This document shows positions 10,084 to 43,836 of a DNA stretch of 64,000 bases, piece by piece. Below the pieces are notes generated by a model, which saw only the letters and a list, made by a program, of their open reading frames with translations, had not been told where the DNA came from and searched no databases. Source of the DNA: an uncultured Gammaproteobacteria bacterium (GTDB taxonomy: Bacteria; Patescibacteriota; Patescibacteriia; UBA1558; S5-K13); NCBI GenBank assembly GCA_964640635.1, contig CAZXFD010000002.1, positions 26,153-90,152 on the forward strand, in the 5' to 3' direction. A program made the translations under genes and the position numbers. Position 1 is the stretch's first letter. Every line of letters starts with the position of its first letter.

Positions 10084-11103
10084 ATGCAAAAAGCTTTATT
10101 ATACAAGAAAATAAAAAGTGGCGCTGTCCAATGTAGATTGTGCAATCATTTTTGTAAAATAGAAAATGCTTGTCTTGGTTTTTGTTGTACAAGAAAAAAT
10201 ATAGATGGTGACTTATATGTTCTCAATTACAACAAATTAATAGCAAAAAATGTCGACCCTATTGAAAAAAAACCACTCTTTCATTACATGCCATCTTCTC
10301 TTACTTATTCAATAGCTTGTATGGGTTGTAATTTAGCATGTTCCAATTGTCAAAACTGGCAAATATCACAAATAAATAAAATTGAAAAGCTTGATGAAGA
10401 ATTTCCAGGGGAAAATATTGAACCGTGTGATATTATTAATCTTGCAAAAAAAGAAAATTGCCCAACAATAGCATACACTTACAGCGAACCAACCATTTTT
10501 TTAGAAACAGCACTACCCATAATGAAGCTTGCACATACCAGTGGCCTCAAAAATATATGGGTTTCAAATGGATTTATGAGTAAAGAATGTCTTGATCTTA
10601 TATGTCCATATTTAGATGCCATAAATATAGATCTCAAATTTTTTAGTGAAGCAAAATACAAAAAAATAACAAACGCATCTTTGAAGCCAATACTAGATAA
10701 TCTAAAATATTTAAAATCAAAAAAAATATTTATAGAAATAACAACACTTCTTATTCCTGGAGAGACAAATACAAACAAACAATTGGAAAAAATAGCAAAA
10801 TTCATATACACAAATATTGGAAAAAATACCCCTTGGCACATATCCGCCTTTTCTCCAGAAATATCATTCAAACTACTTTCTAAAAAATCTAGTTCCATGA
10901 AAGAATTAGAATCCGCTTACCAAATAGGAAAAAATGCCGGATTAGAATTTGTATATCTTGGAAATATAGCCTCTGATACAAGAGAAAATACATATTGTCC
11001 CGCATGTGGATTTTTAAATATAGAAAGACAAGGATACATTATAACACGAGATGACAATAGTGGGCTTTGTCAAAACTGTAAATATAATTTAAACATCATA
11101 TAA
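10084..11103 (+). CDS. AmmeMemoRadiSam-system radical SAM enzyme
   Basis: VQCRLCNHFCKI...GFC N-terminal Cys motif, DPIEKKPLFHYMP, and a GCNLACSNCQNWQIS radical-SAM CxxxCxxC cluster. Together these match the family signature closely. Confidence 0.8.
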   Translation: MQKALLYKKIKSGAVQCRLCNHFCKIENACLGFCCTRKNIDGDLYVLNYNKLIAKNVDPIEKKPLFHYMPSSLTYSIACMGCNLACSNCQNWQISQINKIEKLDEEFPGENIEPCDIINLAKKENCPTIAYTYSEPTIFLETALPIMKLAHTSGLKNIWVSNGFMSKECLDLICPYLDAINIDLKFFSEAKYKKITNASLKPILDNLKYLKSKKIFIEITTLLIPGETNTNKQLEKIAKFIYTNIGKNTPWHISAFSPEISFKLLSKKSSSMKELESAYQIGKNAGLEFVYLGNIASDTRENTYCPACGFLNIERQGYIITRDDNSGLCQNCKYNLNII

Positions 11104-12530
11104 TGAAAAAAACGTTTATAATATCAATAGCAATTTTATCTATTTTTTTTGTAAAAAGTGCAAACTCGCAATGGTTTGATCCAGACTTTAATCCAAACTA
11201 TATTATATCCGACTTTGAACTTACGGATTATTCTTCCATGAGTATAAATGACATAAGATATTTCTTAAATCAAAATAATGGAATCCTAAAAAAATACACT
11301 GTTAAAAATCCGTCAAATGGGAAAACTATTGATGCTGCTGAAGTAATTTATAATGCATCAAAAGCATACAAAATAAACCCAAAATATATACTAGTATTAC
11401 TACAAAAAGAACAAAGTCTCATAACAGATCCAAGCCCAACACAAAAACAACTCGACTGGGCAACTGGATATGCTGTCTGTGATTCTTGTCTTATGACAGA
11501 TAATGAAATACAAAAATACAAAGGATTTTATAATCAAGTTACAAACGCTGCAAAAAGAAATAGATTTTATATAGACAACAAAAATACTCCTTGGTTTTTC
11601 CAAGCACAAAGCTATTACTCAATAGACGGACAAAGTGTTTCTCCTATAAACCAAGCTACAGCAAGTTTATATAATTATACCCCACATATAAATGGTAATT
11701 ATAATTTTTGGAAAATATGGCAAAAATGGTTTGCAAAAAAATACCCAAACGGATCCATAATCAAGGAAAATGGATCTCAAACAATCTGGCTTATAGAAGA
11801 TGATAAAAAAAGACCCTTTACAACATGGACATCTTTTATAAGTAGATACAAAAAAAACGATGTAATCAATGCAAATCATAGCGATCTTGCACAATATCCA
11901 ATAGGAATATCAATAAATTTTGAAAATTATTCATATCTTAGAACGCCCGATAAAAAAATTTACATGCTCGATAATGACAAGCTTCGAGAATTTGAATCAA
12001 GTGAAGTAAGTCGTTACTTTGGGATAAATCCTGAGGAGTTAATAGACATAACCTGGGAAGATTTCTATTATTATAGTCTTGGTGATAAAATTACTATGAA
12101 AAGCACGTATCCTAGCGGAGCCGTTATAGAAAATAAAGATGACAAAAAATTATATTATGTTAAAAATGGTTATAAGCACGAAATACAAGACAAAAGAATA
12201 TTAGAAACAAACTTCTCAAATCAATTCAAGTTAATATTAAGTAAAGATGAGGTAAATAATCTAGAAAATGCAGAACCCATAAAATTCAAAGACGGAACAC
12301 TAATCAAATCAAATATGGGTAATATAGTATTTATGGTCTCTGAAGGAAAAATCAAACCCATTAAAAACGAAAATAGTTTCAATGGACTTGGATATAAATG
12401 GACAAATATAATATCAGTTAGTGATAATCTATTAAAACAATATGAAGTCGGAGAAACAATAGAAATAAAAATAGAAGAGATAAAACCAGAAGATTTACTT
12501 CCTGAGACTAAAACAGAAAAACCATTATGA
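11103..12530 (+). CDS. Secreted hypothetical protein (signal peptide; weak lytic-transglycosylase-like LLQKEQS motif)
   Basis: The MKKTFIISIAILSIFFVKSANS signal peptide. The ATG overlaps the upstream stop (TAATG) and the downstream ATGA overlap indicates translational coupling. No AMMECR1 RGCIG motif is present. Confidence 0.6.
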   Translation: MKKTFIISIAILSIFFVKSANSQWFDPDFNPNYIISDFELTDYSSMSINDIRYFLNQNNGILKKYTVKNPSNGKTIDAAEVIYNASKAYKINPKYILVLLQKEQSLITDPSPTQKQLDWATGYAVCDSCLMTDNEIQKYKGFYNQVTNAAKRNRFYIDNKNTPWFFQAQSYYSIDGQSVSPINQATASLYNYTPHINGNYNFWKIWQKWFAKKYPNGSIIKENGSQTIWLIEDDKKRPFTTWTSFISRYKKNDVINANHSDLAQYPIGISINFENYSYLRTPDKKIYMLDNDKLREFESSEVSRYFGINPEELIDITWEDFYYYSLGDKITMKSTYPSGAVIENKDDKKLYYVKNGYKHEIQDKRILETNFSNQFKLILSKDEVNNLENAEPIKFKDGTLIKSNMGNIVFMVSEGKIKPIKNENSFNGLGYKWTNIISVSDNLLKQYEVGETIEIKIEEIKPEDLLPETKTEKPL

Positions 12531-13336
12531 CAAAAATTAAAACAATATTAATACCACATAACCCACTTGTTATTTCAAAAATTGGAGGTAAGTATTCCGA
12601 CACATTGAAATCCTCTATGGATGCAATGAAAAAAATTAGACAATCCATATATGAATTCAAACCAAAAAAAATAATTATAATAACTCCCCCAATAAAAGAT
12701 TTACAAAAAATATCAATACACCAAAAAGAAAAATATCATATTAATCTTAAAGATTTTGGTGATTTATCTATGGAGTTTGAAGTAAGTGGAGATATGGATT
12801 ATTCCACAAGACTAAAATATTTCTTAAGAAAAAATAATTTTGATGTCAATATGTTCTCTGGTGAAAAAACATATTATCAAAGCTTTGTACCATTGTATTA
12901 CTTGAATCAATTTCATATATCCTCAAAAGGCTTTGAAAATGAACTCAAAAAAGATGAAACTCTCAAGTCTGAATTTATAATAATCCACAGTTCAAATGAC
13001 ACAATAGATTATCATCTAAAATTTGGCAATTTGCTTTATGAATTCTTAAGAGACACAAAAGACAATATTTTAATTATAGCTTGCGGTGATTTCGCAAAAA
13101 AATCAGCACACGAGGAAAATGAAGATCTACCCAAATTAAGCTACAAACTTATAGACCTCATAAAATCAAAAAGCTTTGATGAAATCCTAAACATGAAAGA
13201 AGAATTAAAAAATGGCTATCCGTGGATAAAACCATTTGCTTCTATACTTCATTTTATAAACAAAAGCAAACGAAAACCCGTTATTTTATCTCTAGACAAA
13301 GAATTTCAAGAAATGTATATAACTATAGAGTTTTAA
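12527..13336 (+). CDS. Memo-like (AmmeMemoRadiSam protein B-like) protein, apparently degenerate
   Basis: IPHNPLVISKIGG resembles the vPHAGyvYSG block, KKIIIITPP resembles vvilGPsH, and FIIIHSSNDTIDYH resembles vvSSDlSHy. Several presumed metal ligands are substituted. Confidence 0.45.
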   Translation: MTKIKTILIPHNPLVISKIGGKYSDTLKSSMDAMKKIRQSIYEFKPKKIIIITPPIKDLQKISIHQKEKYHINLKDFGDLSMEFEVSGDMDYSTRLKYFLRKNNFDVNMFSGEKTYYQSFVPLYYLNQFHISSKGFENELKKDETLKSEFIIIHSSNDTIDYHLKFGNLLYEFLRDTKDNILIIACGDFAKKSAHEENEDLPKLSYKLIDLIKSKSFDEILNMKEELKNGYPWIKPFASILHFINKSKRKPVILSLDKEFQEMYITIEF

Positions 13337-14186
13337 GTTTTTTTGAAGAAGGGCAATTAGGAGGAAAAACTTTTCCTCTATTTTTTTTGATATAATAAAG
13401 CCAGCTTTTTATATGCGCTCTTGTAAGCTTATTAAACAAAATTGAAAACAATACATTTGTTTTGTTTTTTGAAGCTTGTTGATGCAAATGAATAGCGCAA
13501 ACACCACCCAAATAATACACCGAATATCCAGATTCCCACATTCTTCTGCAAACATCTATATCCTCTAAATACAAAAATATTCCTTCATCAAAATAATTGA
13601 TGTTTTCATAATTCTTTTTTCTTGTCATATAGCATGATCCCATGACCCAATCCACTTCTTGAATAGACTCATGATTTACATCTCTCATCAAAAAATTATC
13701 TAACCATTTTTTGCCTACATTTGTTTTTGATAAAATAGTTCTTCTAAATAAAGGGTAAAAAATATTTGGAAATCTAAAACATGTTTCTTGAAGTGTAGAA
13801 TCTCCATTCGTAAGTCGCGGAGCAACAATCCCGACCTTATCATGATTTTTCAAAAAATTATACATATACTCAATAGTCTCTTTTGATATCCTAATATCTG
13901 GATTTAAAATCAAAATATACTCACCCTTGGCTTGTTTTATGGCTACATTATTACCAGCACCACAACCCTTATTTACTCCTGTTTGAATAAATTTCACCCC
14001 TTCAAACTCCTTCATTACGATGTCTATATTGTCATGGGAGTTATTATCTACAACAATAATTTCTACATCAAAATAAAAGCTATAAGTAACCAATTTTCTT
14101 AATTGATACTTTATCAGATTTGCTAACTTGTAATTTAATATTATGATTGACAACATATATTTAATGAAGAAGTACAAAGTTATCAA
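13323..14186 (-). CDS. Glycosyltransferase family 2
   Basis: VEIIVVDNNSHD, a GxGxGNN segment and a YLEDID (DxD-like) motif. The N-terminal extension is atypical, so the true start may be internal. It overlaps the convergent + strand gene by 14 nt. Confidence 0.75.
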   Translation of the reverse strand: MITLYFFIKYMLSIIILNYKLANLIKYQLRKLVTYSFYFDVEIIVVDNNSHDNIDIVMKEFEGVKFIQTGVNKGCGAGNNVAIKQAKGEYILILNPDIRISKETIEYMYNFLKNHDKVGIVAPRLTNGDSTLQETCFRFPNIFYPLFRRTILSKTNVGKKWLDNFLMRDVNHESIQEVDWVMGSCYMTRKKNYENINYFDEGIFLYLEDIDVCRRMWESGYSVYYLGGVCAIHLHQQASKNKTNVLFSILFNKLTRAHIKSWLYYIKKNRGKVFPPNCPSSKKLKTL

Positions 14187-14230
14187 GTAAGAATTTTATT
14201 CCTTAAAACTTTATACTTTAAACTTTTTAC

Positions 14231-15247
14231 TTATTTATACCATTTATAAAGCTCTCTGCTTCTAATCTTCACGATATTTTTGAAAATAAACTTTCTTTTT
14301 TTAAACATTTTTTTATATTTATCATGACTTTTCCAAAAAAATTTTAGCGTGCTTCTTTCAAAAAGCAATACATAAATAAACTTTTTAAACTCATAGATAA
14401 ACAATGGGAAAAAACATCTAATAAAATTCATTGTAGACTCATTTTTAATAAGCAAATAAATATGATTTCTATAAGAATACTCATTTACCCAAGATGACTT
14501 GTTTTTTCTATTCTCTACCACACTCAAACCCCCACGAACAGATCTATCATGATAACAAATCATATCTGCTAAAAAATAGCTCTTGAATCCTGCTAAACGC
14601 AATCTAAATGCCAAATCAACATCTTCTTTATAGCTAAAAAAATCTTCATCAAAATATTCATTATTAATCTTAACATCTTCTAGTGCTTTTTTTGCATATA
14701 TGGGGCAAGCACCACATGGACCAAATATTTCTCTAGTTCTTGAAAATTCAACAGAATCCTCTTTCAATTGACCAAAATCTACAACCTTATGATTCTTAAA
14801 AACTTCAAAGCCACATGTATCTATAATATTTGTTTTTCCTTGCTTATCTGCATTGTATGGATCTTCATTATTGAACTTCCACTGATATAGTTTTGGCTCT
14901 ATTGATCCAATAGAATCCTTATCTTCTTGATTATCTATGAAATAAAATAGATTATCTAAAAAATCAGACTCAATAATCATATCTTGATTGAGGCACATTA
15001 TATAATCCGACTTTGCCCAATTCATTAATCTATTATGGGCTTTTGCAAAGCCAATATTTTCTTTATTTATAATTACTTTAAATTGAGGAAAATATTTATT
15101 TATCACAGCTACCGTATTATCATTTGAGCCATTATCCATTATGTTGAGCTCAAAATCTTTAAAATTTTGCTTTAAAACAGAATTAATACAGTGTTTAATG
15201 TATTTTTCTCCGTTCCATGTAACTAAATTTATACTTATTCTAGACAT
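14231..15247 (-). CDS. Glycosyltransferase family 2 (rhamnosyltransferase-like)
   Basis: ISINLVTWNGEKYI...DNGSNDNT N-terminal GT2 signature and an internal DxD-type region. Confidence 0.8.
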   Translation of the reverse strand: MSRISINLVTWNGEKYIKHCINSVLKQNFKDFELNIMDNGSNDNTVAVINKYFPQFKVIINKENIGFAKAHNRLMNWAKSDYIMCLNQDMIIESDFLDNLFYFIDNQEDKDSIGSIEPKLYQWKFNNEDPYNADKQGKTNIIDTCGFEVFKNHKVVDFGQLKEDSVEFSRTREIFGPCGACPIYAKKALEDVKINNEYFDEDFFSYKEDVDLAFRLRLAGFKSYFLADMICYHDRSVRGGLSVVENRKNKSSWVNEYSYRNHIYLLIKNESTMNFIRCFFPLFIYEFKKFIYVLLFERSTLKFFWKSHDKYKKMFKKRKFIFKNIVKIRSRELYKWYK

Positions 15248-15251
15248 TATT

Positions 15252-16724
15252 TTAGCTTGCAGCTGTCAGCTCTCGACCTTCAGCTAATTCGATTATACAA
15301 ATTATTAAAATCACAAAACCAATTCCTAGTGGATGATCTAAGTAAGGTGAAAAAATGTGAACCGCCAAAACGGCTAAAAAAGAAAGTAATAATGAAATAA
15401 AAATTACATTATTAGTCCTTATCAATCTAACAGAATCTCGCATTATTTTCAAGCTCAGAGAAATATAAAATATAAGCCCAAAAATACCCATTTTAAGCCA
15501 AAAGCTAAGCCATCCCCATTCAAAACTATATGTTGTTGTAAGTCCTGTTGGGTTGAAAACATTTTTATTTCTTGGGTCAAGGGAATAATAACTAATTTCA
15601 TGACCCATGCCGTATCCAATTATTGGAGAATTTTTTATATCCCTTAGCATGGGGTGCAATAATTCCATTCTTGAGTTACTACTAGAGTCTCCTTCACTTA
15701 CACGACCAGAGAGCATATCTGCAAAATTAATATGAGTATTTGGAATTTTCAGTAATATAAAAATTAATAATATTGAAAGAACAATAACCCCAAACAATTT
15801 TATATAATTTAAAAAAATTATTTTTATCTTTTGTTTTTGAAAAACTAGAATAAAAAATAAAAAAATAAATGCAATCACGACTCCAAGCCAATAACTACGA
15901 GAAAAACTAACAATAATTGCTGACAAATTTAATATCGATAAAGTATAAAAAAATATTTTATCTTTCTTTTGTAATTTAGAGGTCATTAAAACGACTGAAC
16001 TAATTACAAATGAAATCATTAAATATATTTGACTCTGAAAAAATATTCTATAAAAATGTTCATTCATCTTTGTAATCTCCCCCACCCTTGTATCTCTAAG
16101 CCATTTGTACAAAGTTGTATAGTCTATAAAACTAAATTGTTGAGAGAATAAATAAAATACAATAATTGTCTTTAGTGAAAAGAAAAGTGATGCGGAAAGA
16201 AATATATAAAACAAATTTGCGAAAACTTTCTTATCTTTTATAATTTGATAATAAATTGGCAGTATCAAAAAGAATAAAAAGTTATTAATATCAAAAAATA
16301 TGTTTGAGGGTTTTGTTTTGTTAAGCAGTGCTATTAAAACACCAAATACTAAAACTAAAATATAAACAACATAAAACCATATATACTTACTTTTTATAAA
16401 GTCTAACTTATTTTTTTTATATAAATAAATAAGTCCGGCTATAAAGGCAATTATAAAAATAAGCATTCTAAGAGACAATGAAAAACCAAACATATCAACA
16501 CTTATCAATCGTCCCTGAGATCCCACAAAAAGCTCTATAAAGCTTAAATATACCGCCCATTTAATATCTCTCGCTATTAAATATATAATACTTAATGCAA
16601 TTAATATAAAAGCAATAATTCCAAAAACATAAAATTGATGCGCAAAGAAAAATACTGAGTCCATTATTATAAGACCCAGAAATGTGATACGGAAATAATT
16701 GTTTTTTAAAATGTTAAAACTCAT
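15252..16724 (-). CDS. Polytopic membrane protein, O-antigen ligase / Wzy_C-like (could be a polymerase, ligase or O-oligosaccharyltransferase)
   Basis: About 11-12 predicted TM helices with a large loop containing NxxxG and H motifs, consistent with the Wzy_C family. Confidence 0.5.
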   Translation of the reverse strand: MSFNILKNNYFRITFLGLIIMDSVFFFAHQFYVFGIIAFILIALSIIYLIARDIKWAVYLSFIELFVGSQGRLISVDMFGFSLSLRMLIFIIAFIAGLIYLYKKNKLDFIKSKYIWFYVVYILVLVFGVLIALLNKTKPSNIFFDINNFLFFLILPIYYQIIKDKKVFANLFYIFLSASLFFSLKTIIVFYLFSQQFSFIDYTTLYKWLRDTRVGEITKMNEHFYRIFFQSQIYLMISFVISSVVLMTSKLQKKDKIFFYTLSILNLSAIIVSFSRSYWLGVVIAFIFLFFILVFQKQKIKIIFLNYIKLFGVIVLSILLIFILLKIPNTHINFADMLSGRVSEGDSSSNSRMELLHPMLRDIKNSPIIGYGMGHEISYYSLDPRNKNVFNPTGLTTTYSFEWGWLSFWLKMGIFGLIFYISLSLKIMRDSVRLIRTNNVIFISLLLSFLAVLAVHIFSPYLDHPLGIGFVILIICIIELAEGRELTAAS

Positions 16725-16727
16725 TTA

Positions 16728-19700
16728 TTATTTACTTCCCCTTATTATAACTTCATGCATTGTATCATTTCCCACCATATAGGTATTTGTCTCTTTTGCT
16801 TCAAACTTGACCCCTGTATCTTTACTTAGTTTTTCAAGTTGTTTCATAATTATCTGATATGATGTTTGCTCTCTAAATTGAGCAAATATAGGAATTATAT
16901 TATCTTTTTCAATATAATTTACCTTGTATGCTTCTACAAAAGCTAATATTAATGATCCTCCCGCTCTAGAATTTCCATCTGAAGCAAGATCTGATACATA
17001 TACAATATTTTCCGAATCCTTATCGTCTTTGTCCATTTTACCTTCATAAGCAAGAATATAGCCGTGCATTTTTTTGTCTTCTCCGGTATATTTAAAACTC
17101 ATCTCTGGTCTATTTTTTATCATATTATTAACATCTTTTGCAATGAGGGCATTTTCCATATTATGCAAATATTGAATCAATTTTTGATTATCTTTATATG
17201 CCTTTCCCTCAATATACGCAACCTTTATTGAATCTTGAAATGTAAGACTACTAATACCCCTTGGTAACTTCAATTCTAATCTTTTTAAATTTATTTTTTT
17301 CTTTTCTTGCATACCAGTAACTCTTGATAAAATAATCCCTTCTTTTTCCTCCTTAGATATATCTAACAACATTGATTCACCAAAATTTACATTATCACTA
17401 TAACCAACCGGAGCCTCTGGTACGGTTGTGTTTGCTATTCTATCAAGAGATATATTTGCATCAGTATACCCAAGACCTACTAATACCTTATTTTCATCTA
17501 AATTATATTTTTTTGCGAATCTTCTTATATATTCTTTAAAAAAATTAGCGTATAGAATTTTTAATACCTCTGTATTATTTCTTTGTGATTTAAAATTAGG
17601 TGCAACCTCTATATTATCGCATGTAATTATGCTCTGTTTATCTATTAAAACATCGTCGCTTACAATATCATGCATATGGGCCTCGAATTTATTTAGTTGG
17701 GCCACTACTTCTAATATATTTTTTTCTATATCAATATTTTTTGTAAGGACACTTTGAGCAATAGTTCTCCAATTTTTTTGTTTATTATTATCGCTAGATT
17801 CGGTCAATCTTTGAATAGTAAATAAAGAACATATGGGATTGAATGTGTATACATTACTTTTTCCGCTTCCAAATGGCATACAACAAGAAGTATCATTTCC
17901 AGCAACCACTCCATTAGGGTCTGATTTTAAATTTATTTTTGCACGATACTCTTCAATTATTCTATCATCTTCAAGTCCACTGTTCTGATTATATATTATA
18001 TTTAATATCTGATCCTTAATACTTTCTAATACCTGGGCTTTGTCTTCTTCTATTTTTCCAGACTGAAGATAAGGAACAATATTAATTTTGTTTTCTTTAA
18101 AAATCTTTTGTAGTTCAGAAAATAATTTATCCGGATTTTTTGCTTCCCCTAGCACACCCTCTCTTCTTTTTCCGATTGCTTTTAATATTAATTCGTTTAA
18201 TTCCAAGCTTCCGTATTTACCGCTAGATATCATTAATTTATAATCTATTTCTAAAGGTTCAAATACTTGTAAATTATCATAATCCCCCTCCACAAGAGCA
18301 TCTCTTAAATCATCCGAGGATAAATCTAGGTGTGAAATTACTATATAATTTGATGGCTTTTTTCTATCATGAACCTCTCTTGGTGTATGACTATCTGATA
18401 ACTGCAAAAATCTTCCTGAATTTTTCCAAAACTCCATCACTTTTTGCATTTCAATATTAGGATGAAACGCGAGTTTTTCAATATAATTATATAAATTTAT
18501 TTTTCCAATACTCTTCAACTCTTTTAGCTGATCCAATATTTCTTTTCTATTTAAAATTTGACATAAATCATTATATTTCCTAAGCATTTTCCAAGAAGAA
18601 AATACATCTCCAACGCTTCGTATTTCTTTTAGTAATTTATCTAGAGTTGGCAAACCGTATTCTTTTGCTTGAGACAATGTTTCTTCTAAATTGGAATTAA
18701 TATTGCGAGAAATGCTATTTAATACATGATATGAGCTACCAATTTCATAAACAGCTGTATCATCTTTTATTTGTTTTAATATATTATTATAAAATTCATT
18801 TGCAGATAATCCAGAAACATTGTATAAGTCTATTATTTTCAAAAAATTATGAAGAGCATCATGCTTAGAAATATTGGGCCTTTCAATATAATTGAACATT
18901 TTAGAATAACCAAATATCTTAGCCCCTGTTTCAAAAGGAATTAATATATTTTGTTCATCTATCCAGTTTTCATGTTTTCTTTTCAGTTTGTCAAATATAT
19001 ATTGACTTTTCACCTCACTTCCCATTGTTCTTATCTTATCTAAATCATCTTTAATGAAATAGAGCTCCGATGGTAATAAATTTAAATTCTTTGCATCATC
19101 AAATATGTAATCGCAATCTTTTGAAAAAAATCCATGTCCATTATCAATGCTCTTAAAATAAGATTTTTCAATGCAATAATCTAAATCACCCTTAGATAAA
19201 ACCACATTAAACTCTTCTTTAATTTTTGAGGCTTTATCTATATATAGCAACAAACACCTTATCATACCCTCTTTAGCAGCCTCAATGACAAGCTCTTCTG
19301 ATACATTAAATTTATCTTTTATTAAAATACCTGCATCAAAGTTTCCCTCAGAAAATCTATTTACCATTCCTTCTTTTGCATATTGTTGTATTTTTGAAGA
19401 TGCAATCATTTCATCGCTAATATTATATTTCTCTATTATACTTATTGCATTATAAATCATTCTCGAAGCTACGGAGATTTTCGATATCGCTTGAACTACA
19501 GCATCCAAAATAGTTTCTTCATTTAGATGAAACGTGTCTATTATTTCCTGTACAAAATCACGCCTTAAATCATTCGATAGAGCCCACGCAATTACTTCTT
19601 TTGCGGCATCCGAAACAATTTCTTCATTTACATGAAACCTATTAATTAGCTCTATAGTCTCCTTTATTCCCTTTGTCCGAAGTAAATCTATTACTATTGG

Positions 19701-22493
19701 TAACATTAATTTTTGCGTTTCTTCAGATTCTAATACTTGGGGAGAAACTTTAAATATATCTATAAAAATTAAGGGGTCTTTTGTTTGTGCATTTTTTAAG
19801 CAACATGATAATCCATTTTGGATAGCAGTCTGAAAGTCTTGAGATTCAAAAAATTCATTAGGAAAATTATATTCCCTTTGTATATCAATTGCAGTAAATA
19901 CATCTACTAGGTTACACATTGGGGACAAGAGCGTTATCATTTTTAATTTTATTACATCTTGCACTTCTTGAGACTGCAATATATCACTCGACAAATTAAA
20001 TTCTTTTTTTAATTTTACTAAATTGTGAGTATCTAAATATACTGATGTATTGAGTATTCTAGCCTTAATAGCAAATTGTATTTCTTGGGACTGTAGAATA
20101 TCATCTGACGCTGATAATATTTGTCTTATATGAATTGCTCTATCTATTCTATTATCCGAAAACTCTGCTATTATTGCCGATTTTATAGCATTTATAATTT
20201 CTTGAGACTGCAATACATCCTCTGATACATAAAATTCTTCTTTTATTCTTAATATACCGTTTATATTTTTACTCAATAAAAACTGTAACATACATATTTT
20301 TACAGCGTCCTGCATTTCTTGAGACTGCAATACATCCTCTGATACATAAAATTCCATTTTTATATTTATTGCTTCATCTATGTCTCCGACAGAAATTTGT
20401 CTTATAATTTGTTCTTTGGCGGCTTCTTGAATCTCAGAAAATTTACAAATTCTCTCTACAGATGGTTCACTTTCTACATTATCATTTATTAACTCTTCAT
20501 CAATAAGGCCCTCTGCTTCTACTATAATAGGATCATCTATTACTATAAATCGTTTCTTAATTTTTATTGCTTCATATACTTTTCCTGATGATAAATATTG
20601 TATTATTCCTATTTTTACCGCATCTTGCATTTCTTGAGATTGTAATATCTGAAAAGAGAGATGAAATTTATCTTGTATGTTTATTGCCTCGTATAAGCCT
20701 CCCGATGACAAAAGGTGAATTATTACTAATTTTACACAATCATCCATATCATCTTTTGAAATGCCCACTTTTTCTTGAAGTTCTCTGGCTCTATATAAAT
20801 CTCGATGAGGATATAAAAAGCTACGTATTATTTTTTTTGCAATATTTTGAAAAACTTCTTCTGATATTCTAAGTTTTTCTTTAATTTTTATTGCGCTATC
20901 TATAGAATTATTGTGCATAAGACGTGATATTGCATTTTCTCCAGCATACTGCACTTCCTTAGAAAATAATATTTCATCCGTAATTTGAAATTTTTCAAAA
21001 AACCCAATTACTGTATCTATATAATATGAAGCTTCATTTAATAATCCTATCAATCCAATTTTTACGGCATCCTGCACCTCTTTAGAAAGTATCACCTCGC
21101 TAGAAACTTGAAACTTATCTATAATTTTGATTGTTTCATGTGTAAACTTCTTCGTAAGAGAATTTATTAACCCTTTTTTTATTGCATCATCAATTCCATC
21201 TGTTATTTCTATGTCAGTAGATAATTTAAATACACTTCTTAGTCTAATAACTAAATCTGAATTATAACCACTAGATAAAATATTTATTACATTTTGTTTT
21301 GCAAGCGATTGAAGATCTTCAGATAATATAACCTCCTCTGATATTTGAAATTTTTCTATAATTTGAAGGACTGTATTTACATAATTTGTTGACTTTCCAA
21401 GTAGGCTAATTATTGTTTGTTTTGCTGAATCTTGAATTTCTTTAGACTTTATTACTTCGTCTGGGATTTGAAATCTATTTACAAATTCTACTGCATGATC
21501 GACGCCATATGCACTAGATAACTTATTTGCCATTCCTTTTCTTGCAGCATCTTGAATTTCTTTAGACTTTATTACTTCTTCTGAGATTGGAAATTTTGTT
21601 ATAATTTCTAAAGCTCGAACAATGTTAAAATTCCAATTAGATAAACACATCATTATTGCTTGTTTTGTATATTTTAATATAGAATCTTTAGAGATACTTA
21701 ATTTTTCTAACAACTTCTCCAGATCATCTAAATTACTATAATATAAAGCATTAGCCATACCCTTATCCGCTGCATCTCTGAGCTTTTTAGATGTTAATAT
21801 TTTTTCTGATACATCAAACTCTTCTATAAGTTCTAGAATTTTATTTGCATCAGCCCCTACTGATAACTCGCTTATAATTTTATTAACCACAGCCTTTTGA
21901 ATTTTCTCTAAATATGTATTTTCTTGTATATTAAATTTCTTTTTTAGCTCTATTACACCGTGAACATAGTCCCCTTTACCAGTTTCAAGTGAATCTATAA
22001 TAGATTTTTGCGTGGCCTTTTGCATACTTGACTGTTTTATAACATCTTCTGAAATATTAAATTCTTCTTTAATTTTTATTGCATTTTCTAAATCATTATT
22101 CGACAAACGATTTATTATTTCTTTACTAGCCATGCTCTGTATTTCTTGAGATTCCAATACCTCTGGCGATATATTAAATTTTTCTTTTATATTTAAAGCA
22201 CCCCATATATATCCTTCCGATAAACAGTTTATTATTCCCTTTTTTGCAGCATCCTGAACCATTGGGAAATTAATTAGAGTTTCAGAAAAATTATTTTTTT
22301 CTAATATATCTATGGCATTTTTGTTTTCTCCCCAATCTGATAATTTTGAGATCATTTCTTCTAAATCTTCTTTTTGTTCTTCTGACAAACTTAAATATTC
22401 ATCTAATTCATAGAGGCTTTTAGGCGTATCATCTTTTTCTAAGTTTTTTAATTCTATGTCCTCAATATTTATTTGTTGTGGCTTTTCTAACAT
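16728..22493 (-). CDS. Giant (1,921 aa) cytoplasmic tandem-repeat protein of unknown function; ~25-30 copies of a 39-40-aa helical repeat plus a ~700-aa non-repetitive C-terminal region
   Basis: Repeat consensus roughly F-[NQ]-[IV]-S-E-[ED]-V-[IL]-x-S-[KQ]-E-[IM]-Q-D-A-x-K-x-G-[MI]-[IA]-N-x-L-S. DNA repeats with periods of 117 and 120 bp occur, e.g. 20198-20237 vs 20315-20356. There is no signal peptide. The C-terminal tail has a GNAT-like Rx(x)GG segment, which is weak evidence. Confidence 0.8.
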   Translation of the reverse strand: MLEKPQQINIEDIELKNLEKDDTPKSLYELDEYLSLSEEQKEDLEEMISKLSDWGENKNAIDILEKNNFSETLINFPMVQDAAKKGIINCLSEGYIWGALNIKEKFNISPEVLESQEIQSMASKEIINRLSNNDLENAIKIKEEFNISEDVIKQSSMQKATQKSIIDSLETGKGDYVHGVIELKKKFNIQENTYLEKIQKAVVNKIISELSVGADANKILELIEEFDVSEKILTSKKLRDAADKGMANALYYSNLDDLEKLLEKLSISKDSILKYTKQAIMMCLSNWNFNIVRALEIITKFPISEEVIKSKEIQDAARKGMANKLSSAYGVDHAVEFVNRFQIPDEVIKSKEIQDSAKQTIISLLGKSTNYVNTVLQIIEKFQISEEVILSEDLQSLAKQNVINILSSGYNSDLVIRLRSVFKLSTDIEITDGIDDAIKKGLINSLTKKFTHETIKIIDKFQVSSEVILSKEVQDAVKIGLIGLLNEASYYIDTVIGFFEKFQITDEILFSKEVQYAGENAISRLMHNNSIDSAIKIKEKLRISEEVFQNIAKKIIRSFLYPHRDLYRARELQEKVGISKDDMDDCVKLVIIHLLSSGGLYEAINIQDKFHLSFQILQSQEMQDAVKIGIIQYLSSGKVYEAIKIKKRFIVIDDPIIVEAEGLIDEELINDNVESEPSVERICKFSEIQEAAKEQIIRQISVGDIDEAINIKMEFYVSEDVLQSQEMQDAVKICMLQFLLSKNINGILRIKEEFYVSEDVLQSQEIINAIKSAIIAEFSDNRIDRAIHIRQILSASDDILQSQEIQFAIKARILNTSVYLDTHNLVKLKKEFNLSSDILQSQEVQDVIKLKMITLLSPMCNLVDVFTAIDIQREYNFPNEFFESQDFQTAIQNGLSCCLKNAQTKDPLIFIDIFKVSPQVLESEETQKLMLPIVIDLLRTKGIKETIELINRFHVNEEIVSDAAKEVIAWALSNDLRRDFVQEIIDTFHLNEETILDAVVQAISKISVASRMIYNAISIIEKYNISDEMIASSKIQQYAKEGMVNRFSEGNFDAGILIKDKFNVSEELVIEAAKEGMIRCLLLYIDKASKIKEEFNVVLSKGDLDYCIEKSYFKSIDNGHGFFSKDCDYIFDDAKNLNLLPSELYFIKDDLDKIRTMGSEVKSQYIFDKLKRKHENWIDEQNILIPFETGAKIFGYSKMFNYIERPNISKHDALHNFLKIIDLYNVSGLSANEFYNNILKQIKDDTAVYEIGSSYHVLNSISRNINSNLEETLSQAKEYGLPTLDKLLKEIRSVGDVFSSWKMLRKYNDLCQILNRKEILDQLKELKSIGKINLYNYIEKLAFHPNIEMQKVMEFWKNSGRFLQLSDSHTPREVHDRKKPSNYIVISHLDLSSDDLRDALVEGDYDNLQVFEPLEIDYKLMISSGKYGSLELNELILKAIGKRREGVLGEAKNPDKLFSELQKIFKENKINIVPYLQSGKIEEDKAQVLESIKDQILNIIYNQNSGLEDDRIIEEYRAKINLKSDPNGVVAGNDTSCCMPFGSGKSNVYTFNPICSLFTIQRLTESSDNNKQKNWRTIAQSVLTKNIDIEKNILEVVAQLNKFEAHMHDIVSDDVLIDKQSIITCDNIEVAPNFKSQRNNTEVLKILYANFFKEYIRRFAKKYNLDENKVLVGLGYTDANISLDRIANTTVPEAPVGYSDNVNFGESMLLDISKEEKEGIILSRVTGMQEKKKINLKRLELKLPRGISSLTFQDSIKVAYIEGKAYKDNQKLIQYLHNMENALIAKDVNNMIKNRPEMSFKYTGEDKKMHGYILAYEGKMDKDDKDSENIVYVSDLASDGNSRAGGSLILAFVEAYKVNYIEKDNIIPIFAQFREQTSYQIIMKQLEKLSKDTGVKFEAKETNTYMVGNDTMHEVIIRGSK

Positions 22494-22497
22494 ATAT

Positions 22498-23394
22498 TTA
22501 TAAGTATTTTTTCTTTTTAGGTAATATTTTTAGTTTTGCGCCCACTACAACAAGTCGGACAATAAACCAATTTAAAACAATAAAAAATTGCAAAATTAAA
22601 ATCTGTAATTTACTTTTATGCTTTTTGAAATATACTGATAAGCTTTTATTAAATGTTTTTTGATTTTTTAATATTTTTTCTTGTTTAAAGCTTTCGCCTT
22701 TGTGATGCTTAATAGAGGTAATCGGTGTAAAAATTATATCAAGACCAGCCTCTTTAATTCTTGCACAGAGATCTACTTCTTCAAATAAAAGCCAGTAATC
22801 CTCGTCTAAAAGTCCTCCGACTCGCTCAACAACATCCTTTCTTGTTAGTAAAAATGCACCCATTACTTGTTCTACTTTTTTTTCACTATTATAATCAAAA
22901 TCCAGCATATAATATTTTTTTATAGCTGGAATAAGATATGGAAAAAAATTGTGCAGTTTTAATAACACAAAGATCTGAGATGCTAATGTAGGAAGTCTAC
23001 GGCAAGATGATTGAAGTGTAGAATCACTATTTAATAATTTACATGCCACTGCTCCAATATCAACGCGCGAGTCAAATAACTCAACAAGTTTCTTTAAGCT
23101 TCCATCTTCTATAAATTCTGTGTCTGGATTAAGTAGTAATACATGTTCATGTTTTGATAGTTTATAGCCAATATTATTTGCCTTTGCAAAACCAAGATTC
23201 CCACCTGATTGTATATATCTAGCTTGAGGATATTTACTATTTACCATGTCCTCGCTTCCATCATTTGAGTCATTGTCAATTACAATCACATCTAAATCAA
23301 TGTCAGTATTAAATCTAAACAAAGATTCAAGAGCTTTGTCTAGTAAATCTTTTACTTTATAATTTACGATAATTACAGATATTTGATTCAACAT
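22498..23394 (-). CDS. Glycosyltransferase family 2
   Basis: ISVIIVNYKVKDLL and IVIDNDSNDGS motifs, with a DxD region. Confidence 0.8.
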   Translation of the reverse strand: MLNQISVIIVNYKVKDLLDKALESLFRFNTDIDLDVIVIDNDSNDGSEDMVNSKYPQARYIQSGGNLGFAKANNIGYKLSKHEHVLLLNPDTEFIEDGSLKKLVELFDSRVDIGAVACKLLNSDSTLQSSCRRLPTLASQIFVLLKLHNFFPYLIPAIKKYYMLDFDYNSEKKVEQVMGAFLLTRKDVVERVGGLLDEDYWLLFEEVDLCARIKEAGLDIIFTPITSIKHHKGESFKQEKILKNQKTFNKSLSVYFKKHKSKLQILILQFFIVLNWFIVRLVVVGAKLKILPKKKKYL

Positions 23395-27240: not shown

Positions 27241-27275
27241 GCCTGAAAGCTGATAGCTAATCGCTAATAGCTAGT
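27241..27275. repeat. Intergenic repeat gcctgaaagctgatagctaatcgctaatagctag, related in inverted orientation to 32111-32143
   Basis: Its reverse complement is about 80% identical to tagctgttagctattagcttttagctttcaggc at 32111-32143. Confidence 0.5.
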
Positions 27276-27864
27276 TATAAAGAATCTCATCATCATCACT
27301 TTCCTCTTCACTATCTACTAAGTTGTCATTATCCTCTCCAATTACTGGAATCTTATAACTAACATCTTCTCTATTTATATCATTAATGTCATCATCTAAA
27401 ATTTCTTCATCTTCTACAACGCTCTCTGCATCCTCTTCTTCGTCACTTATTTCCTCTTTTTCTTCTTCATAAATATTATTGTCTATATTTTGAAAAGATC
27501 TTCTTCTATAAGAGTCCATTTGTTCTTTCATTTCCCCAAGGCGTTTAAATAAATTTATAAGAATAAGAAAGATCAAAACAACTGAAACGAGAAGAACCCA
27601 AAAATGAACTTTGGTATAATCAAAATAATCCTCGAAATTAAAAGAATCTTCAGAGGTAGTATCCTCTGGAATGTTGCTCATATCAGTACCTAATTTTCCA
27701 TCTTCTAACTTATTATAAAAATTATCTATTTGTTCTGTTGTGCTGGCATCTAATTCACTTGCTTCTAAATTGGCTTCGCTATATGCTGCCATACAATTAA
27801 AAGACATGGCCAAAAACAAAACTAATGAAATTGGAAGTATATATAATTTTATTTTATTTTTCAT
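27271..27864 (-). CDS. Membrane protein with signal peptide, one internal TM helix and a highly acidic (Glu/Asp-rich) C-terminal tail
   Basis: N-terminal signal peptide, TM FWVLLVSVVLIFLILINLF, and a C-terminal EEEKEEISDEEEDAESVVEDEE...SEEESDDDE tail. Confidence 0.55.
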   Translation of the reverse strand: MKNKIKLYILPISLVLFLAMSFNCMAAYSEANLEASELDASTTEQIDNFYNKLEDGKLGTDMSNIPEDTTSEDSFNFEDYFDYTKVHFWVLLVSVVLIFLILINLFKRLGEMKEQMDSYRRRSFQNIDNNIYEEEKEEISDEEEDAESVVEDEEILDDDINDINREDVSYKIPVIGEDNDNLVDSEEESDDDEILYN

Positions 27865-43600: not shown

Positions 43601-43836
43601 AAACTAATCTCTGATGACAAATCTAGATTATTAAAAATCTGGACCTGATAATTAACGAGAGGGGTTCCTGATGAGTTTGTAATTCCAATTGATTTGCGAT
43701 AAAGCCAAGAAGCATCCCACCAAGAAGCTTGGACTGAATTATTAACGCGGAGTAAATAAATCACGCCGAAGACAATCATGATGCCGATGACTATGGCTGA
43801 GATGTAGAATTTGTAATTTATTGATTTTAATTTCAT
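40654..43836 (-). CDS. Secreted/anchored DUF2341-domain protein with three LamG-type (concanavalin-A-like lectin) domains
   Basis: N-terminal TM/signal, then WLYRKSI...LRFTD..GNLLSYWIED (DUF2341 signature). Three LamG_3-type blocks each end in D[DE]VR[VI]Y[DN]YA.[ST].EQ[IV]..DY. Confidence 0.75.
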   Translation of the reverse strand: MKLKSINYKFYISAIVIGIMIVFGVIYLLRVNNSVQASWWDASWLYRKSIGITNSSGTPLVNYQVQIFNNLDLSSEISLGKIQDNLNDLRFTDINGNLLSYWIEDTTSTSVDVWLRIASIPESGISVYMYYGNSIASPGKSIIGTSSFPALSCKSILASGSSTGSGAYFVDFTNGYLADEQEVYCDMTDNDGGWMLVEPEMISSVISRYVEVHTETDSNGGVFYIFTHQDVGCDNNDTGATVQVTSTIQWDKVRAKHSLVNGKSYCWSMDGTGNYGGQRTNSNLETFLVGTDVVQNCVLSCEDPQFVIPPLTRCDDTAENYGIYNVVSERSFELISRRKNRTSVSGPALGLSCNDMNMTSKIENIYIKEDYLSYDDVSVGAFSGQELALGIAGVSAKLGSRIETLTPPILYYNFDEGYGTTTYNYGTTTNSGTIYGASWTSDGKFGKALSFYERADNYVSIPNVISGDNTHTISFWVKPTSDGVMFDMGGNEQDAYSFIKLTRSGLDVSYVPNNIINYDWRTYPYDFTLGRWYHIVIAKTGVGDNLNVYIDGKLLTIYIGTVGNMNVGSIMYLGKFHDDGLGIYGLLDEVRVYDYALSESQVKVDYNQGMTMVMGSTGTNTSASSDYCIPGDTSFCAPPVAEYKFEKKSGTLAYDTSGNNKNGEIFGANSVMGKFGSAMSFDGNDYINCGTIATSGEITVSMWFKNSDAESQKIIFDINGTNSRGHFAFNWLNNRPILYLANNNFRYFNSSAQNYLDGRWHHLVVYIAGTKPPDILNSKLYIDNNNIPADATISTEDPVARSNFFIRYNNSSGFNGDIDDVRIYNYARTPAQIAWDYNKGAPIAHYKFDECSDVVLHDESGNGLDGTITIGTDGSQSAAGTCTDNNTASAWYNGRNGKRKASLNFDGSDDYVDITTNGYTSNISVSFWFNTTSNNSEMVIFANGAGGTDVLDSIGLDKGLIFYSQNNYAKITINKFNDGLWHYAVLDVANKKIYVDGVDQFLVDSDIYKVSDEMLIGASYKGRIHGDFFSGKIDDLKIFNYAFTPEQVKLDYAGSAIKFN

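What the first reader, a model, noticed from the sequence alone, without database searches (positions are those of the whole stretch)
16728..22493. 1,921-aa cytoplasmic protein built from ~25-30 tandem 39-40-aa helical repeats, embedded between a Wzy_C-like protein and a GT2
Most of the protein is an array of 39-40-residue units with a conserved core (F.[IV]SE[ED]V[IL].S.E[IM]QDA.K.G[MI].N.LS), visible as 117- and 120-bp DNA periodicity (20198-20237 = 20315-20356; 21428 = 21548). It has no signal peptide. The last ~700 aa are non-repetitive and carry Cys-containing and Rx(x)GG-type segments that might form an enzymatic (GNAT-like?) domain. A HEAT/PBS-lyase-like solenoid of this size, translationally linked (3-4-nt gaps) to glycosylation enzymes, is unusual. 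It could be a scaffold that organises the glycosylation machinery or a large adaptor for the surface fibre.
Basis: partly seen in the sequence, partly recalled or inferred. Interest (0 to 1): 0.6.

Follow-up and report, generated by a model that had tools for sequence, protein, structure and literature searches.

The report
Repeat-expanded Patescibacteria protein with GNAT-fold end
This 1,921-residue cytoplasmic protein is the most repeat-rich member sampled of a large, unnamed protein family found mainly in Patescibacteria (CPR) genomes, joining a variable helical-repeat arm to a strongly conserved module that ends in an acetyltransferase-like fold; its position among sugar-transferase genes is a local arrangement, not a family trait.

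Summary
The ORF 16728-22493 (-) encodes 1,921 aa. It has 26 tandem units of about 39 aa (aa 59-1081), no signal peptide or transmembrane segment, and 4- and 3-nt gaps to a GT2 and a Wzy_C gene.

- **Repeats:** they are predicted as three-helix units. They match no Pfam repeat family, HEAT and PBS-lyase included, and no solved structure significantly.
- **C-terminal module:** the last ~760 aa define an uncharacterised family with 962 clusters at 50% identity and 36-76% identity to the 69 aligned relatives, across many Patescibacteria lineages. Pfam, NCBIfam, PADLOC and PHROGs give no significant hit.
- **Structure:** AlphaFold (pLDDT 89) shows an all-alpha domain, then a central alpha/beta domain carrying the invariant KSDP..AGNDT.CCMPFGSGK motif, then a C-terminal GNAT fold. 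Foldseek matches Naa10/Ard1/RimI at E 5e-4.
- **Gene context:** the GT2/Wzy_C neighbourhood recurs only in the closest syntenic relative. Among 111 flanking genes from about 70 other loci, no Pfam family occurs more than twice.
- **Repeat number:** it varies from 7-16 units in close relatives to 26 here.

Most likely this is a cytoplasmic GNAT-type acyltransferase with an evolvable binding arm. Its substrate is unknown.

The parts
16728..22493 (-). Complete CDS, 1,921 aa plus stop; the repeat-richest member sampled of an uncharacterised family found mainly in Patescibacteria
22320..22493 (-). Acidic N-terminal leader, aa 1-58 (31% D+E, net charge -11). Conserved with close homologue P0002. No signal peptide.
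19203..22319 (-). Array of 26 tandem units of about 39 aa, aa 59-1097. Each unit is predicted as helix (~9 aa), short helix (4-5 aa), long helix (~16 aa). Some units are a shorter two-helix variant lacking the 'QSQEIQ' segment.
18267..19202 (-). Linker plus conserved all-alpha domain, aa 1098-1409. Family-conserved from about aa 1160 (motifs PFE.GA..FGY.KMF, SRHDALH, HTP.EVH.RKKPSNY, LDLTAE.LRDALVEG).
17262..18266 (-). Central alpha/beta domain, aa 1410-1744, the most conserved part of the family. The secondary-structure order from aa ~1512 follows a GNAT-like beta1-alpha1-alpha2-beta2-beta3-(insert)-beta4-alpha3-beta5 pattern. Only weak fold matches were found (GNAT toxins AtaT and 7byy, prob ~0.9, E 0.4).
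17835..17927 (-). Family signature KSDPNGVVAGNDTSCCMPFGSGKSNVYTFNP, aa 1523-1553. Invariant in 70 aligned members: K, P, A, G, D, T, the second C, M, G, G, K, Y, N. Candidate active-site loop with an invariant Cys (aa 1538).
16731..17261 (-). C-terminal GNAT-fold domain, aa 1745-1921 (beta1-alpha1-alpha2-beta2-beta3-beta4-alpha3-beta5-alpha4-beta6-beta7). SRAGGSLI lies in the beta4-alpha3 loop.
22498..23394 (-). Upstream neighbour, GT2 glycosyltransferase (298 aa), 4-nt gap. Context only, not a conserved partner.
15252..16724 (-). Downstream neighbour, Wzy_C / O-antigen-ligase-like membrane protein (490 aa), 3-nt gap. Context only.
13323..15247 (-). Two further GT2 genes downstream (338 and 287 aa). 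Context only.

Best explanation
The gene encodes a cytoplasmic multidomain protein of a large, so far unnamed family found mainly in Patescibacteria (CPR).

The conserved part is the C-terminal ~760 aa. It comprises an all-alpha domain, a central alpha/beta domain with an invariant Cys-containing loop (AGNDT.CCMPFGSGK), and a terminal GNAT-fold domain. I infer that this module is an acyl-CoA-dependent (or otherwise GNAT-type) acyltransferase, possibly built from two GNAT-like halves.

The N-terminal part is a lineage-variable arm of three-helix repeats, 39 aa here. I infer that it acts as a binding or spacing platform for the enzyme's partner or substrate. In this organism the arm has been amplified to 26 units, against 7-16 in close relatives.

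Shown:
- the ORF and the repeat array;
- family membership and family breadth;
- the predicted folds;
- the lack of a conserved gene neighbourhood.

Inferred:
- catalytic activity;
- the acyl donor and acceptor;
- the role of the arm.

The tight packing between GT2 and Wzy_C genes is a local operon arrangement shared with the nearest relative. It is not the family's defining context.
For: - **Family breadth:** the C-terminal query finds 157 proteins at 37-76% identity over more than 88% of 822 aa. Named sources include Dojkabacteria, Komeili-, Wolfe-, Kerfeld-, Falkow-, Magasanik-, Morani-, Berkel-, Doudnabacteria and SR1. A profile search of 1.84 billion representatives gives 962 hits at E<=1e-3 and 415 at E<=1e-30. 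Seventy-nine loci in GTDB species genomes are mostly labelled Patescibacteria lineages.
- **Architecture:** the domain is always C-terminal, preceded by 0-1,800 aa of variable sequence.
- **Structure:** AlphaFold of aa 1100-1921 gives pLDDT 89.3 and pTM 0.82, with GNAT topology at the end. The top 50 Foldseek PDB matches are all GNAT acetyltransferases, best E 5.2e-4, TM(target) 0.56-0.64.
- **Motif A region:** the only sequence-level PDB hit is the GNAT BH1408, aligned on beta4-alpha3.
- **Conservation:** invariant polar residues cluster in the central domain and the GNAT, as expected of an enzyme rather than a pure scaffold.
- **Repeats:** 26 units against none in shuffles. They are predicted with pLDDT 80-93. 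The same unit occurs in 64 of 199 family N-termini, the window protein has the most (23-26, next 17), and a reversed-sequence control gives 0. Units usually resemble each other more than orthologues' units.
- **Context:** it is variable.
Against: - No sequence method links any part to GNAT or any other known family. This covers Pfam, NCBIfam, PADLOC, PHROGs, PDB profile searches and hhalign.
- The GNAT motif A (Q/RxxGxG/A) is only partly kept. One Gly is near-invariant and the Arg is not conserved across the family. Cofactor binding is therefore unproven, and the domain could be a pseudo-enzyme.
- The GNAT-like reading of the central domain rests on secondary-structure order and weak Foldseek hits (E 0.26-0.6).
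- The local operon-like packing with glycosylation genes is conserved in the nearest relative. A lineage-specific link to envelope glycan synthesis is therefore not excluded.
Confidence: 0.6

Rival explanations
1. Glycosylation scaffold or adaptor. The repeat arm organises the neighbouring GT2 and Wzy_C enzymes, or links them to the giant surface protein encoded 21 kb away.
For: All genes lie on the same strand with 3-4-nt gaps. GT2-X-Wzy_C-GT2-GT2 is conserved in the nearest syntenic relative L086. Another close relative (P0002) lies between RmlB-like and RmlD-like genes, near GT4 and PMT_2 genes.
Against: Outside these close relatives the orthologue sits in unrelated contexts: mraY-murD-ftsW, SecA/HPF, RecO, and MgtC/T2SS. 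The most frequent blastp neighbour cluster occurs in 6 of 86 loci. No Pfam family occurs in more than 2 of 111 immediate neighbours. The conserved part of the protein looks enzymatic, not scaffold-like.
Confidence: 0.12
2. NatA-like protein N-terminal (or lysine) acetyltransferase. In this reading, a fused helical-repeat arm plays the role of Naa15 and docks the GNAT onto the ribosome or another large complex.
For: The best fold matches are Naa10/Ard1, the NatC and NatE catalytic subunits, and RimI. Architecture of a long helical arm followed by a GNAT. Some loci lie near translation or secretion genes such as HPF, RRF, SecA, SecY, ribosomal proteins and LepA.
Against: GNAT top hits are generic, and EctA and polyamine acetyltransferases score similarly. 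The repeats are not TPR. The arm is acidic, with net charge -40. That is unfavourable for rRNA contact. The translation-related neighbours are not recurrent.
Confidence: 0.15
3. Tandem-GNAT transferase of the FemABX, MprF or L/F-transferase type. It would use aminoacyl-tRNA or another non-CoA donor to modify a cell-envelope precursor.
For: Two consecutive GNAT-like alpha/beta units are predicted. The weak hits are to tRNA-acting GNATs, AtaT with Met-tRNA. One orthologue lies directly upstream of mraY-murD-ftsW-murG-murC-murB. The window copy sits among envelope glycan genes.
Against: There is no Pfam FemAB, DUF2156 or Leu_Phe_trans signal. The fold evidence for the central domain is weak (E>0.2). 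The mur adjacency was seen in only one lineage (L004, which is the same contig as L028).
Confidence: 0.08
4. Non-enzymatic structural or regulatory protein. The GNAT-like domains would be degenerate ligand-binding modules, and the protein would act purely as a large cytoplasmic scaffold.
For: Motif A is incomplete, and no sequence similarity to active GNATs was found. The repeat number is highly variable.
Against: Conservation is very high: 36-76% identity to the 69 aligned relatives from distant lineages. There are 36 invariant, mostly polar or Gly/Pro, positions, including a Cys. This pattern is typical of catalytic sites.
Confidence: 0.05

Closest known systems
GNAT superfamily N-acetyltransferases (Naa10/Ard1, RimI, EctA)
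   Same: The predicted fold and strand/helix order of the last ~175 aa match. A Gly-containing beta4-alpha3 loop sits at the CoA-pyrophosphate position. Foldseek gives E 5e-4 to 1e-2, prob 1.00, TM(target) ~0.6.
   Different: No Pfam or HMM signal. Sequence identity is 8-18%. Motif A is only partly conserved. The domain is fused behind ~1,750 aa of other domains. The substrate is unknown.
Eukaryotic and archaeal NatA/NatB/NatC complexes (helical-repeat auxiliary subunit plus GNAT catalytic subunit)
   Same: The overall logic is the same: a long alpha-helical repeat platform combined with a Naa10-like GNAT.
   Different: Here everything is in one polypeptide. The repeats are a novel 39-aa three-helix unit, not TPR. 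A large extra conserved module lies in between (all-alpha domain plus Cys-loop alpha/beta domain). Ribosome association was not tested.
HEAT, PBS-lyase HEAT-like and ARM alpha-solenoid repeats
   Same: The period is about 39 aa. The units are all-helical with amphipathic helices and probably form a continuous helical arm. The weak Foldseek matches are to designed helical repeats, PPR proteins and the Slt70 superhelix.
   Different: No Pfam HEAT, HEAT_2, HEAT_PBS or Arm match even at E<=1. The predicted unit has three helices in the order medium-short-long. No significant structural match.
Tandem-GNAT enzymes (FemX/FemA, MprF C-terminal domain, N-myristoyltransferase, MshD, Eis)
   Same: Possibly two successive GNAT-like alpha/beta units form one catalytic module.
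   Different: No sequence relationship was found. The GNAT nature of the central domain is only weakly supported. The invariant AGNDT.CCMPFGSGK loop has no counterpart that I could find in Pfam or in PDB sequences.

Membership tests
GNAT superfamily (fold level), C-terminal domain aa 1745-1921 | Mixed alpha/beta fold with order beta1-alpha1-alpha2-beta2-beta3-beta4-alpha3-beta5-alpha4-beta6(-beta7) | tested here: met
   The DSSP order of the AlphaFold model (pLDDT ~85-95 there) fits. All 50 listed Foldseek PDB matches are GNAT-type acetyltransferases; best E 5.2e-4, prob 1.00.
GNAT superfamily (sequence level) | Significant match to a Pfam or PDB GNAT profile (Acetyltransf_1, _7, _10 and so on) | tested here: not met
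   Zero Pfam families at E<=1 for the whole protein. None of 27 family GNAT segments hits a GNAT Pfam model at E<=10. The best PDB sequence hit is BH1408 at E 0.45.
GNAT superfamily | Motif A Q/R-x-x-G-x-G/A in the beta4-alpha3 loop, which binds the CoA pyrophosphate | tested here: inconclusive
   The window has S-R-A-G-G-S-L at that position. Across the family only one Gly is at least 90% conserved, and the Arg is not.
GNAT superfamily | Acyl-CoA binding and acyl transfer | not testable with these tools
   Needs biochemistry.
HEAT / PBS-lyase HEAT-like repeats | Match to the HEAT, HEAT_2, HEAT_EZ or HEAT_PBS profiles | tested here: not met
   No Pfam family at E<=1.
HEAT / PBS-lyase HEAT-like repeats | Unit is a two-helix antiparallel hairpin stacked into a solenoid | tested here: inconclusive
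   Full units are predicted as three helices (9, 4-5 and 16 aa) and short units as two. Coordinates could not be inspected. Only weak, non-significant matches to helical-repeat proteins.
Wzy-dependent or GT2 glycan-assembly operon component | Conserved co-localisation with Wzy_C or glycosyltransferase genes across relatives | tested here: not met
   Conserved only in L086, with partial sugar context in L001. Absent in L004-L006 and L087. No Pfam family occurs in more than 2 of 111 flanking genes.
Unnamed Patescibacteria family defined here by the C-terminal ~760-aa module | Full-length match to the module, including the KSDP..AGNDT.CCMPFGSGK, ACDNIEVAPN, APVGYSD, VAYIEGKAY and LHNMENALIAKD motifs | tested here: met
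   The window protein aligns over aa 1160-1919 with 36-76% identity to 69 members and carries all 36 invariant residues.
FemABX / aminoacyl-tRNA-dependent tandem-GNAT transferases | Two GNAT-like domains plus a match to the FemAB profile | tested here: inconclusive
   There is no FemAB Pfam match, so the sequence feature is not met. A second GNAT-like domain is only weakly suggested. hhalign between the two domains is not significant.

The most novel reading that the evidence does not exclude
The conserved C-terminal module is a previously unrecognised, Patescibacteria-wide enzyme class. It would be a two-lobed GNAT-derived transferase with a catalytic Cys loop (AGNDT.CCMPFGSGK). Its target would be selected by a rapidly evolving helical-repeat arm, and arm length (7 to 26 or more units) would tune reach or valency towards a repetitive or very large partner. 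That partner could be the ribosome or nascent chains, an envelope precursor polymer, or a host-interaction structure. This would make it a hallmark housekeeping function specific to this ultra-small-cell lineage.
Probability: 0.25. Interest if true: 0.75.

Novelty: new variant of a known kind. Interest (0 to 1): 0.55.

Why it matters
Patescibacteria make up a large share of bacterial diversity. They have tiny genomes, and many of their conserved genes have no known function.

This family comprises hundreds of 50%-identity clusters. Its ~760-aa module keeps 36-76% identity to the 69 aligned relatives, and no Pfam, NCBIfam or PDB counterpart exists at the sequence level. A protein kept this conserved in such reduced genomes is likely to do something important.

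Three results make it experimentally approachable. It ends in a GNAT fold. It carries an invariant Cys loop. It has a repeat arm whose length varies between close relatives. These point to acyl-CoA binding assays, Cys and GNAT point mutants, and partner pull-downs with the arm.

The analysis also corrects a tempting but unsupported annotation, 'glycosylation scaffold', that would otherwise be spread by guilt-by-association from this one locus.

Tried and rejected
- **Whole-protein homology search.** It returned only 2 hits, because the 8,000-candidate word filter was saturated by the repeat-rich, low-complexity part. Repeating it with the C-terminal 822 aa solved this.
- **Tandem Repeats Finder on the DNA.** It found nothing, because the repeats are too diverged. 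Protein HMM iteration and the repeat finder were used instead.
- **Family and structure libraries.** The following gave no significant match:
  - Pfam, NCBIfam, PADLOC and PHROGs on the whole protein. The one PADLOC hit, DpdF at E 0.026 over 24 aa, was rejected as chance.
  - Pfam on 27 GNAT segments and 18 central-domain segments.
  - PDB sequence searches with three profiles.
- **Exact look-up of the window protein's contig.** Nothing is on record, so the organism name was not obtained. The family distribution, 29% GC and the closest named hit (Dojkabacteria, 68% identity) suggest a Dojkabacteria-related Patescibacterium.
- **HExxH motif.** I considered a metalloprotease motif in the N-terminal extensions of some long relatives. 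It occurs in only 7 of 199, so it was rejected as a family feature.
- **Literature searches.** No description of this family was found. The AGNOSTOS paper (PMC9132574) mentions two phylum-specific unknown gene clusters in Patescibacteria. Whether this family is one of them could not be checked.
- **Nucleic-acid binding by the arm.** Considered unlikely, because the arm's net charge is -40.
Full report
**1. Observation**

The ORF listing gives one uninterrupted ORF at 16728..22493 on the minus strand, 1,921 aa with an ATG start (translation).
- A GT2 gene (22498-23394) precedes it. Its stop codon is 4 nt (ATAT) upstream of the ATG.
- A Wzy_C gene (15252-16724) follows. Its ATG comes 3 nt after the stop.
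- Pfam confirms the neighbours: GT2 upstream, then Wzy_C, GT2, GT2 downstream. GAPDH, three pyruvate:ferredoxin oxidoreductase subunits and acetate kinase lie further upstream.
- The window has about 29% GC.

**2. Repeats**

BLOSUM62 autocorrelation of aa 1-1150 peaks at offset 39 and then 78. The last 770 aa show no periodicity.

A repeat HMM iterated to convergence finds 26 units between aa 59 and 1081, mostly 39 aa start to start.
- The consensus is NAIEIIEKFNISEEVLQSQEIQDAAKKGIINLLSNGNIDE.
- Fifty shuffles of the region give on average 0.02 hits.
- The best-conserved positions are hydrophobic (I3, I5, F9, I29/I30, L33) plus S12, S18, Q22, A24 and K26.
- Some units (aa 945-974, 983-1004, 1056-1081) are a shorter form lacking the 'QSQEIQ' segment.

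Identity is only 60-82%, and Tandem Repeats Finder sees nothing. The array is therefore old and diverged, not a collapsed or expanded assembly artefact.

The protein has no hydrophobic 19-mer above 1.47 on the Kyte-Doolittle scale. Its N-terminus is acidic, and the repeat region has net charge -40. It is cytoplasmic by sequence.

**3. What the protein belongs to**

Pfam (E<=1), NCBIfam and PHROGs give nothing. PADLOC gives only one chance-level hit (DpdF, E 0.026 over 24 aa).

A homology search with the whole protein was swamped by its low-complexity repeats and gave 2 hits. The C-terminal 822 aa alone retrieved 157 proteins at 37-76% identity, usually over more than 88% of the query.
- Where named, they come from Dojkabacteria, Komeili-, Wolfe-, Kerfeld-, Falkow-, Magasanik-, Morani-, Berkel- and Doudnabacteria, SR1 and 'Patescibacteria group'.
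- Almost none carries any precomputed Pfam domain.
- A profile search of 1.84 billion 50%-identity representatives finds 962 proteins at E<=1e-3 and 415 at E<=1e-30.
- A scan of GTDB species genomes returned 79 loci, mostly labelled as Patescibacteria lineages. These include Microgenomates (Collier-, Shapirobacteria), Peregrini-/Peribacteria, Gracilibacteria and SR1.

In all members the conserved module (query residues ~60-820, that is aa ~1160-1919 here) lies at the C-terminus. It is preceded by a variable N-terminal region. A 70-sequence alignment has 36 invariant and about 100 near-invariant positions.

**4. Structure of the conserved module**

AlphaFold2 with that alignment gives pLDDT 89.3 and pTM 0.82 for aa 1100-1921. 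Three parts are visible.
- **An all-alpha domain**, model residues ~1-310.
- **A central alpha/beta domain**, model residues ~315-640. It carries the family's most conserved stretch, KSDPNGVVAGNDTSCCMPFGSGKSNVYTFNP (window 17835-17927).
- **A terminal domain**, model residues 648-821, with the canonical GNAT order beta1-alpha1-alpha2-beta2-beta3-beta4-alpha3-beta5-alpha4-beta6-beta7.

Foldseek against the PDB returns only GNAT acetyltransferases in its top 50. The best are Naa10 in NatA, Naa30, Ard1, RimI and EctA, with E 5.2e-4 to 1.5e-2, prob 1.00, about 175-185 aligned columns and TM normalised to the target of 0.56-0.64.

At the sequence level the link is not significant.
- The only PDB hit of a profile of this domain is the GNAT BH1408, at E 0.45. 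It aligns 'YVSDLASD..AGG.LI' to the beta4-alpha3 motif A region.
- No GNAT Pfam model is hit by any of 27 members.

**5. Central domain**

Its secondary-structure order from aa ~1512 also follows a GNAT-like pattern.

In a second model that lacks the terminal GNAT (aa 865-1745; pLDDT 88.9), the only enzyme-like Foldseek matches are weak. They are the GNAT toxins AtaT (7chd) and 7byy (prob ~0.9, E ~0.4, TM target 0.40-0.43), and a ~250-column match to a 90S pre-ribosome chain whose identity I did not verify.

Profile searches of this domain against PDB sequences and Pfam, and hhalign against the terminal GNAT, found nothing significant.

A tandem-GNAT core is therefore a reasonable but unproven reading. 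More sensitive fold libraries were not available.

**6. Structure of the repeats**

In the second model the six C-terminal units are predicted with pLDDT ~80-93.
- A full 39-aa unit forms a ~9-residue helix, a 4-5-residue helix and a ~16-residue helix.
- The short units form two helices.

No PDB structure matches at E<1e-3. The best, non-significant matches are designed helical repeats, PPR proteins and the Slt70/LtgA superhelical domains.

The array is therefore a helical-repeat arm, probably solenoid-like. It is not a detectable member of the HEAT, PBS-lyase, ARM or TPR families.

**7. The arm is the variable part of the family**

With the same HMM, the close relatives P0002 (1,205 aa), P0003 (1,294 aa), P0004 (1,386 aa) and P0009 (1,411 aa) have 7, 9, 13 and 16 units, against 26 here.

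A generalised HMM gives these counts:
- The unit is found in 64 of 199 family N-termini.
- Thirty-nine of them have at least 3 units.
- A reversed-sequence control gives none.
- The window protein has the most (23 by this stricter count), and the next has 17.

Other members show periodicities of 28, 34, 44 or 56 aa, or none detectable. In one of them (P0215) the 34- and 39-aa forms alternate.

Units of the window protein are usually more similar to one another (up to 59%) than to units of orthologues. This is consistent with amplification or homogenisation within this lineage.

The total length is not unique. Family members of 1,911-2,549 aa exist, and one of 5,715 aa. Four long relatives likewise have no Pfam domain.

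**8. Gene context**

The nearest syntenic relative (L086, P0004, 74% identity in the module) has the same order: PTA, AckA, POR subunits, GAPDH, GT2, X, Wzy_C, GT2, GT2, and then the LigB / unknown / radical-SAM trio. P0002 lies between RmlB-like and RmlD-like genes.

Further away the context changes completely:

| Orthologue | Neighbours |
|---|---|
| Komeilibacteria | NifU/NifS on one side, mraY-murD-ftsW-murG-murC-murB on the other |
| Falkowbacteria | HPF and SecA |
| P0121 | RecO and YdjM, near SecY and ribosomal genes |
| P0009 | MgtC and an unknown gene |

Two wider tests agree.
- Clustering all ORFs in 86 loci by blastp, the commonest neighbour cluster (a LepA-like GTPase) occurs in 6 loci.
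- Scanning the 111 immediate neighbours from about 70 loci against Pfam, no family occurs more than twice.

The link to glycosylation genes is therefore a feature of a narrow clade, not of the family. The answer comes out the other way round: the protein is present almost everywhere without such loci.

**9. Best explanation and rivals**

The conservation pattern has many invariant polar, Gly, Pro and Cys residues in the two alpha/beta domains. It points to an enzyme, and the terminal fold points to GNAT-type acyl transfer. The variable, acidic helical arm is most simply a partner- or substrate-binding platform whose length evolves quickly.

I put 0.6 on this overall reading. I am much more confident in the architecture and family assignment than in catalytic activity. 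The rivals are:
- a local glycosylation scaffold (0.12);
- a NatA-like protein acetyltransferase with a fused docking arm (0.15);
- a Fem/MprF-like tandem-GNAT transferase acting on envelope precursors (0.08);
- a non-catalytic scaffold (0.05).

**10. Novelty**

No description of the family was found in three literature searches. The AGNOSTOS study reports two phylum-specific unknown gene clusters in Patescibacteria, without details that would allow a match (PMC9132574).

I classify the protein as a new variant of a known kind: a GNAT-fold enzyme in a novel, lineage-wide multidomain architecture with a new helical repeat.

The finding as written, an unusual repeat protein tied to glycosylation, is less special than it looked.

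Noticed in passing
window 43896-63977 (-), and 40654-43836 (-): A 6,693-aa ORF; its first 3,000 aa give only a sub-threshold Pfam hit, a collagen triple-helix repeat. It is followed by a 1,060-aa protein with three Laminin_G_3 domains and DUF2341.
   Followed up: partly
window 10084-13336 (+): A trio on the opposite strand: a radical-SAM protein (339 aa), a 475-aa protein with no Pfam hit, and a LigB/Memo-like protein (269 aa). The same trio is conserved next to the glycosylation genes in relative L086. It resembles an AmmeMemoRadiSam-type set; that comparison is from my own knowledge and was not tested.
   Followed up: partly
L068 (1.35-Mb contig labelled Drouetiella sp.), L043/L055/L078 (Obscuribacterales), L074/L077/L079/L083/L084 (Bdellovibrionota/-ales): Divergent family members (31-39% identity) lie on contigs binned to non-Patescibacteria taxa with 37-55% GC. 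L083 sits next to an Aas-like MFS-acyltransferase-AMP-binding gene, which I take from general knowledge to be typical of Gram-negative bacteria. The family may extend beyond CPR, or these contigs may be binning errors.
   Followed up: partly
P0122 (5,715 aa, ENA contig of 42.6 kb): This is the top hit of the representative search. It matches the family profile in 4 stretches, with the best at residues 239-1394. It may be a fusion or multi-copy member, or a gene-calling artefact.
   Followed up: no
L022 / L023 (JAAZJX010000069.1, 58,642 bp): The family gene appears at both ends of the same contig, in opposite orientation and with identical match coordinates. This suggests a terminal inverted duplication or a palindromic assembly artefact.
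   Followed up: no
window 27271-27864 (-): A 197-aa ORF between acetate kinase and the POR alpha subunit has no Pfam hit. A 171-aa gene without Pfam hits sits at the same position in L086.
   Followed up: no
P0011 and P0215 (JGI annotations): Source annotations for family members, 'FtsZ-interacting cell division protein YlmF' and 'predicted nucleic acid-binding protein', look like spurious automatic names. Faint precomputed Pfam hits (HTH_11, Sigma70_r4, Peptidase_M78) fall on the repeat-containing proteins P0007-P0009.
   Followed up: no
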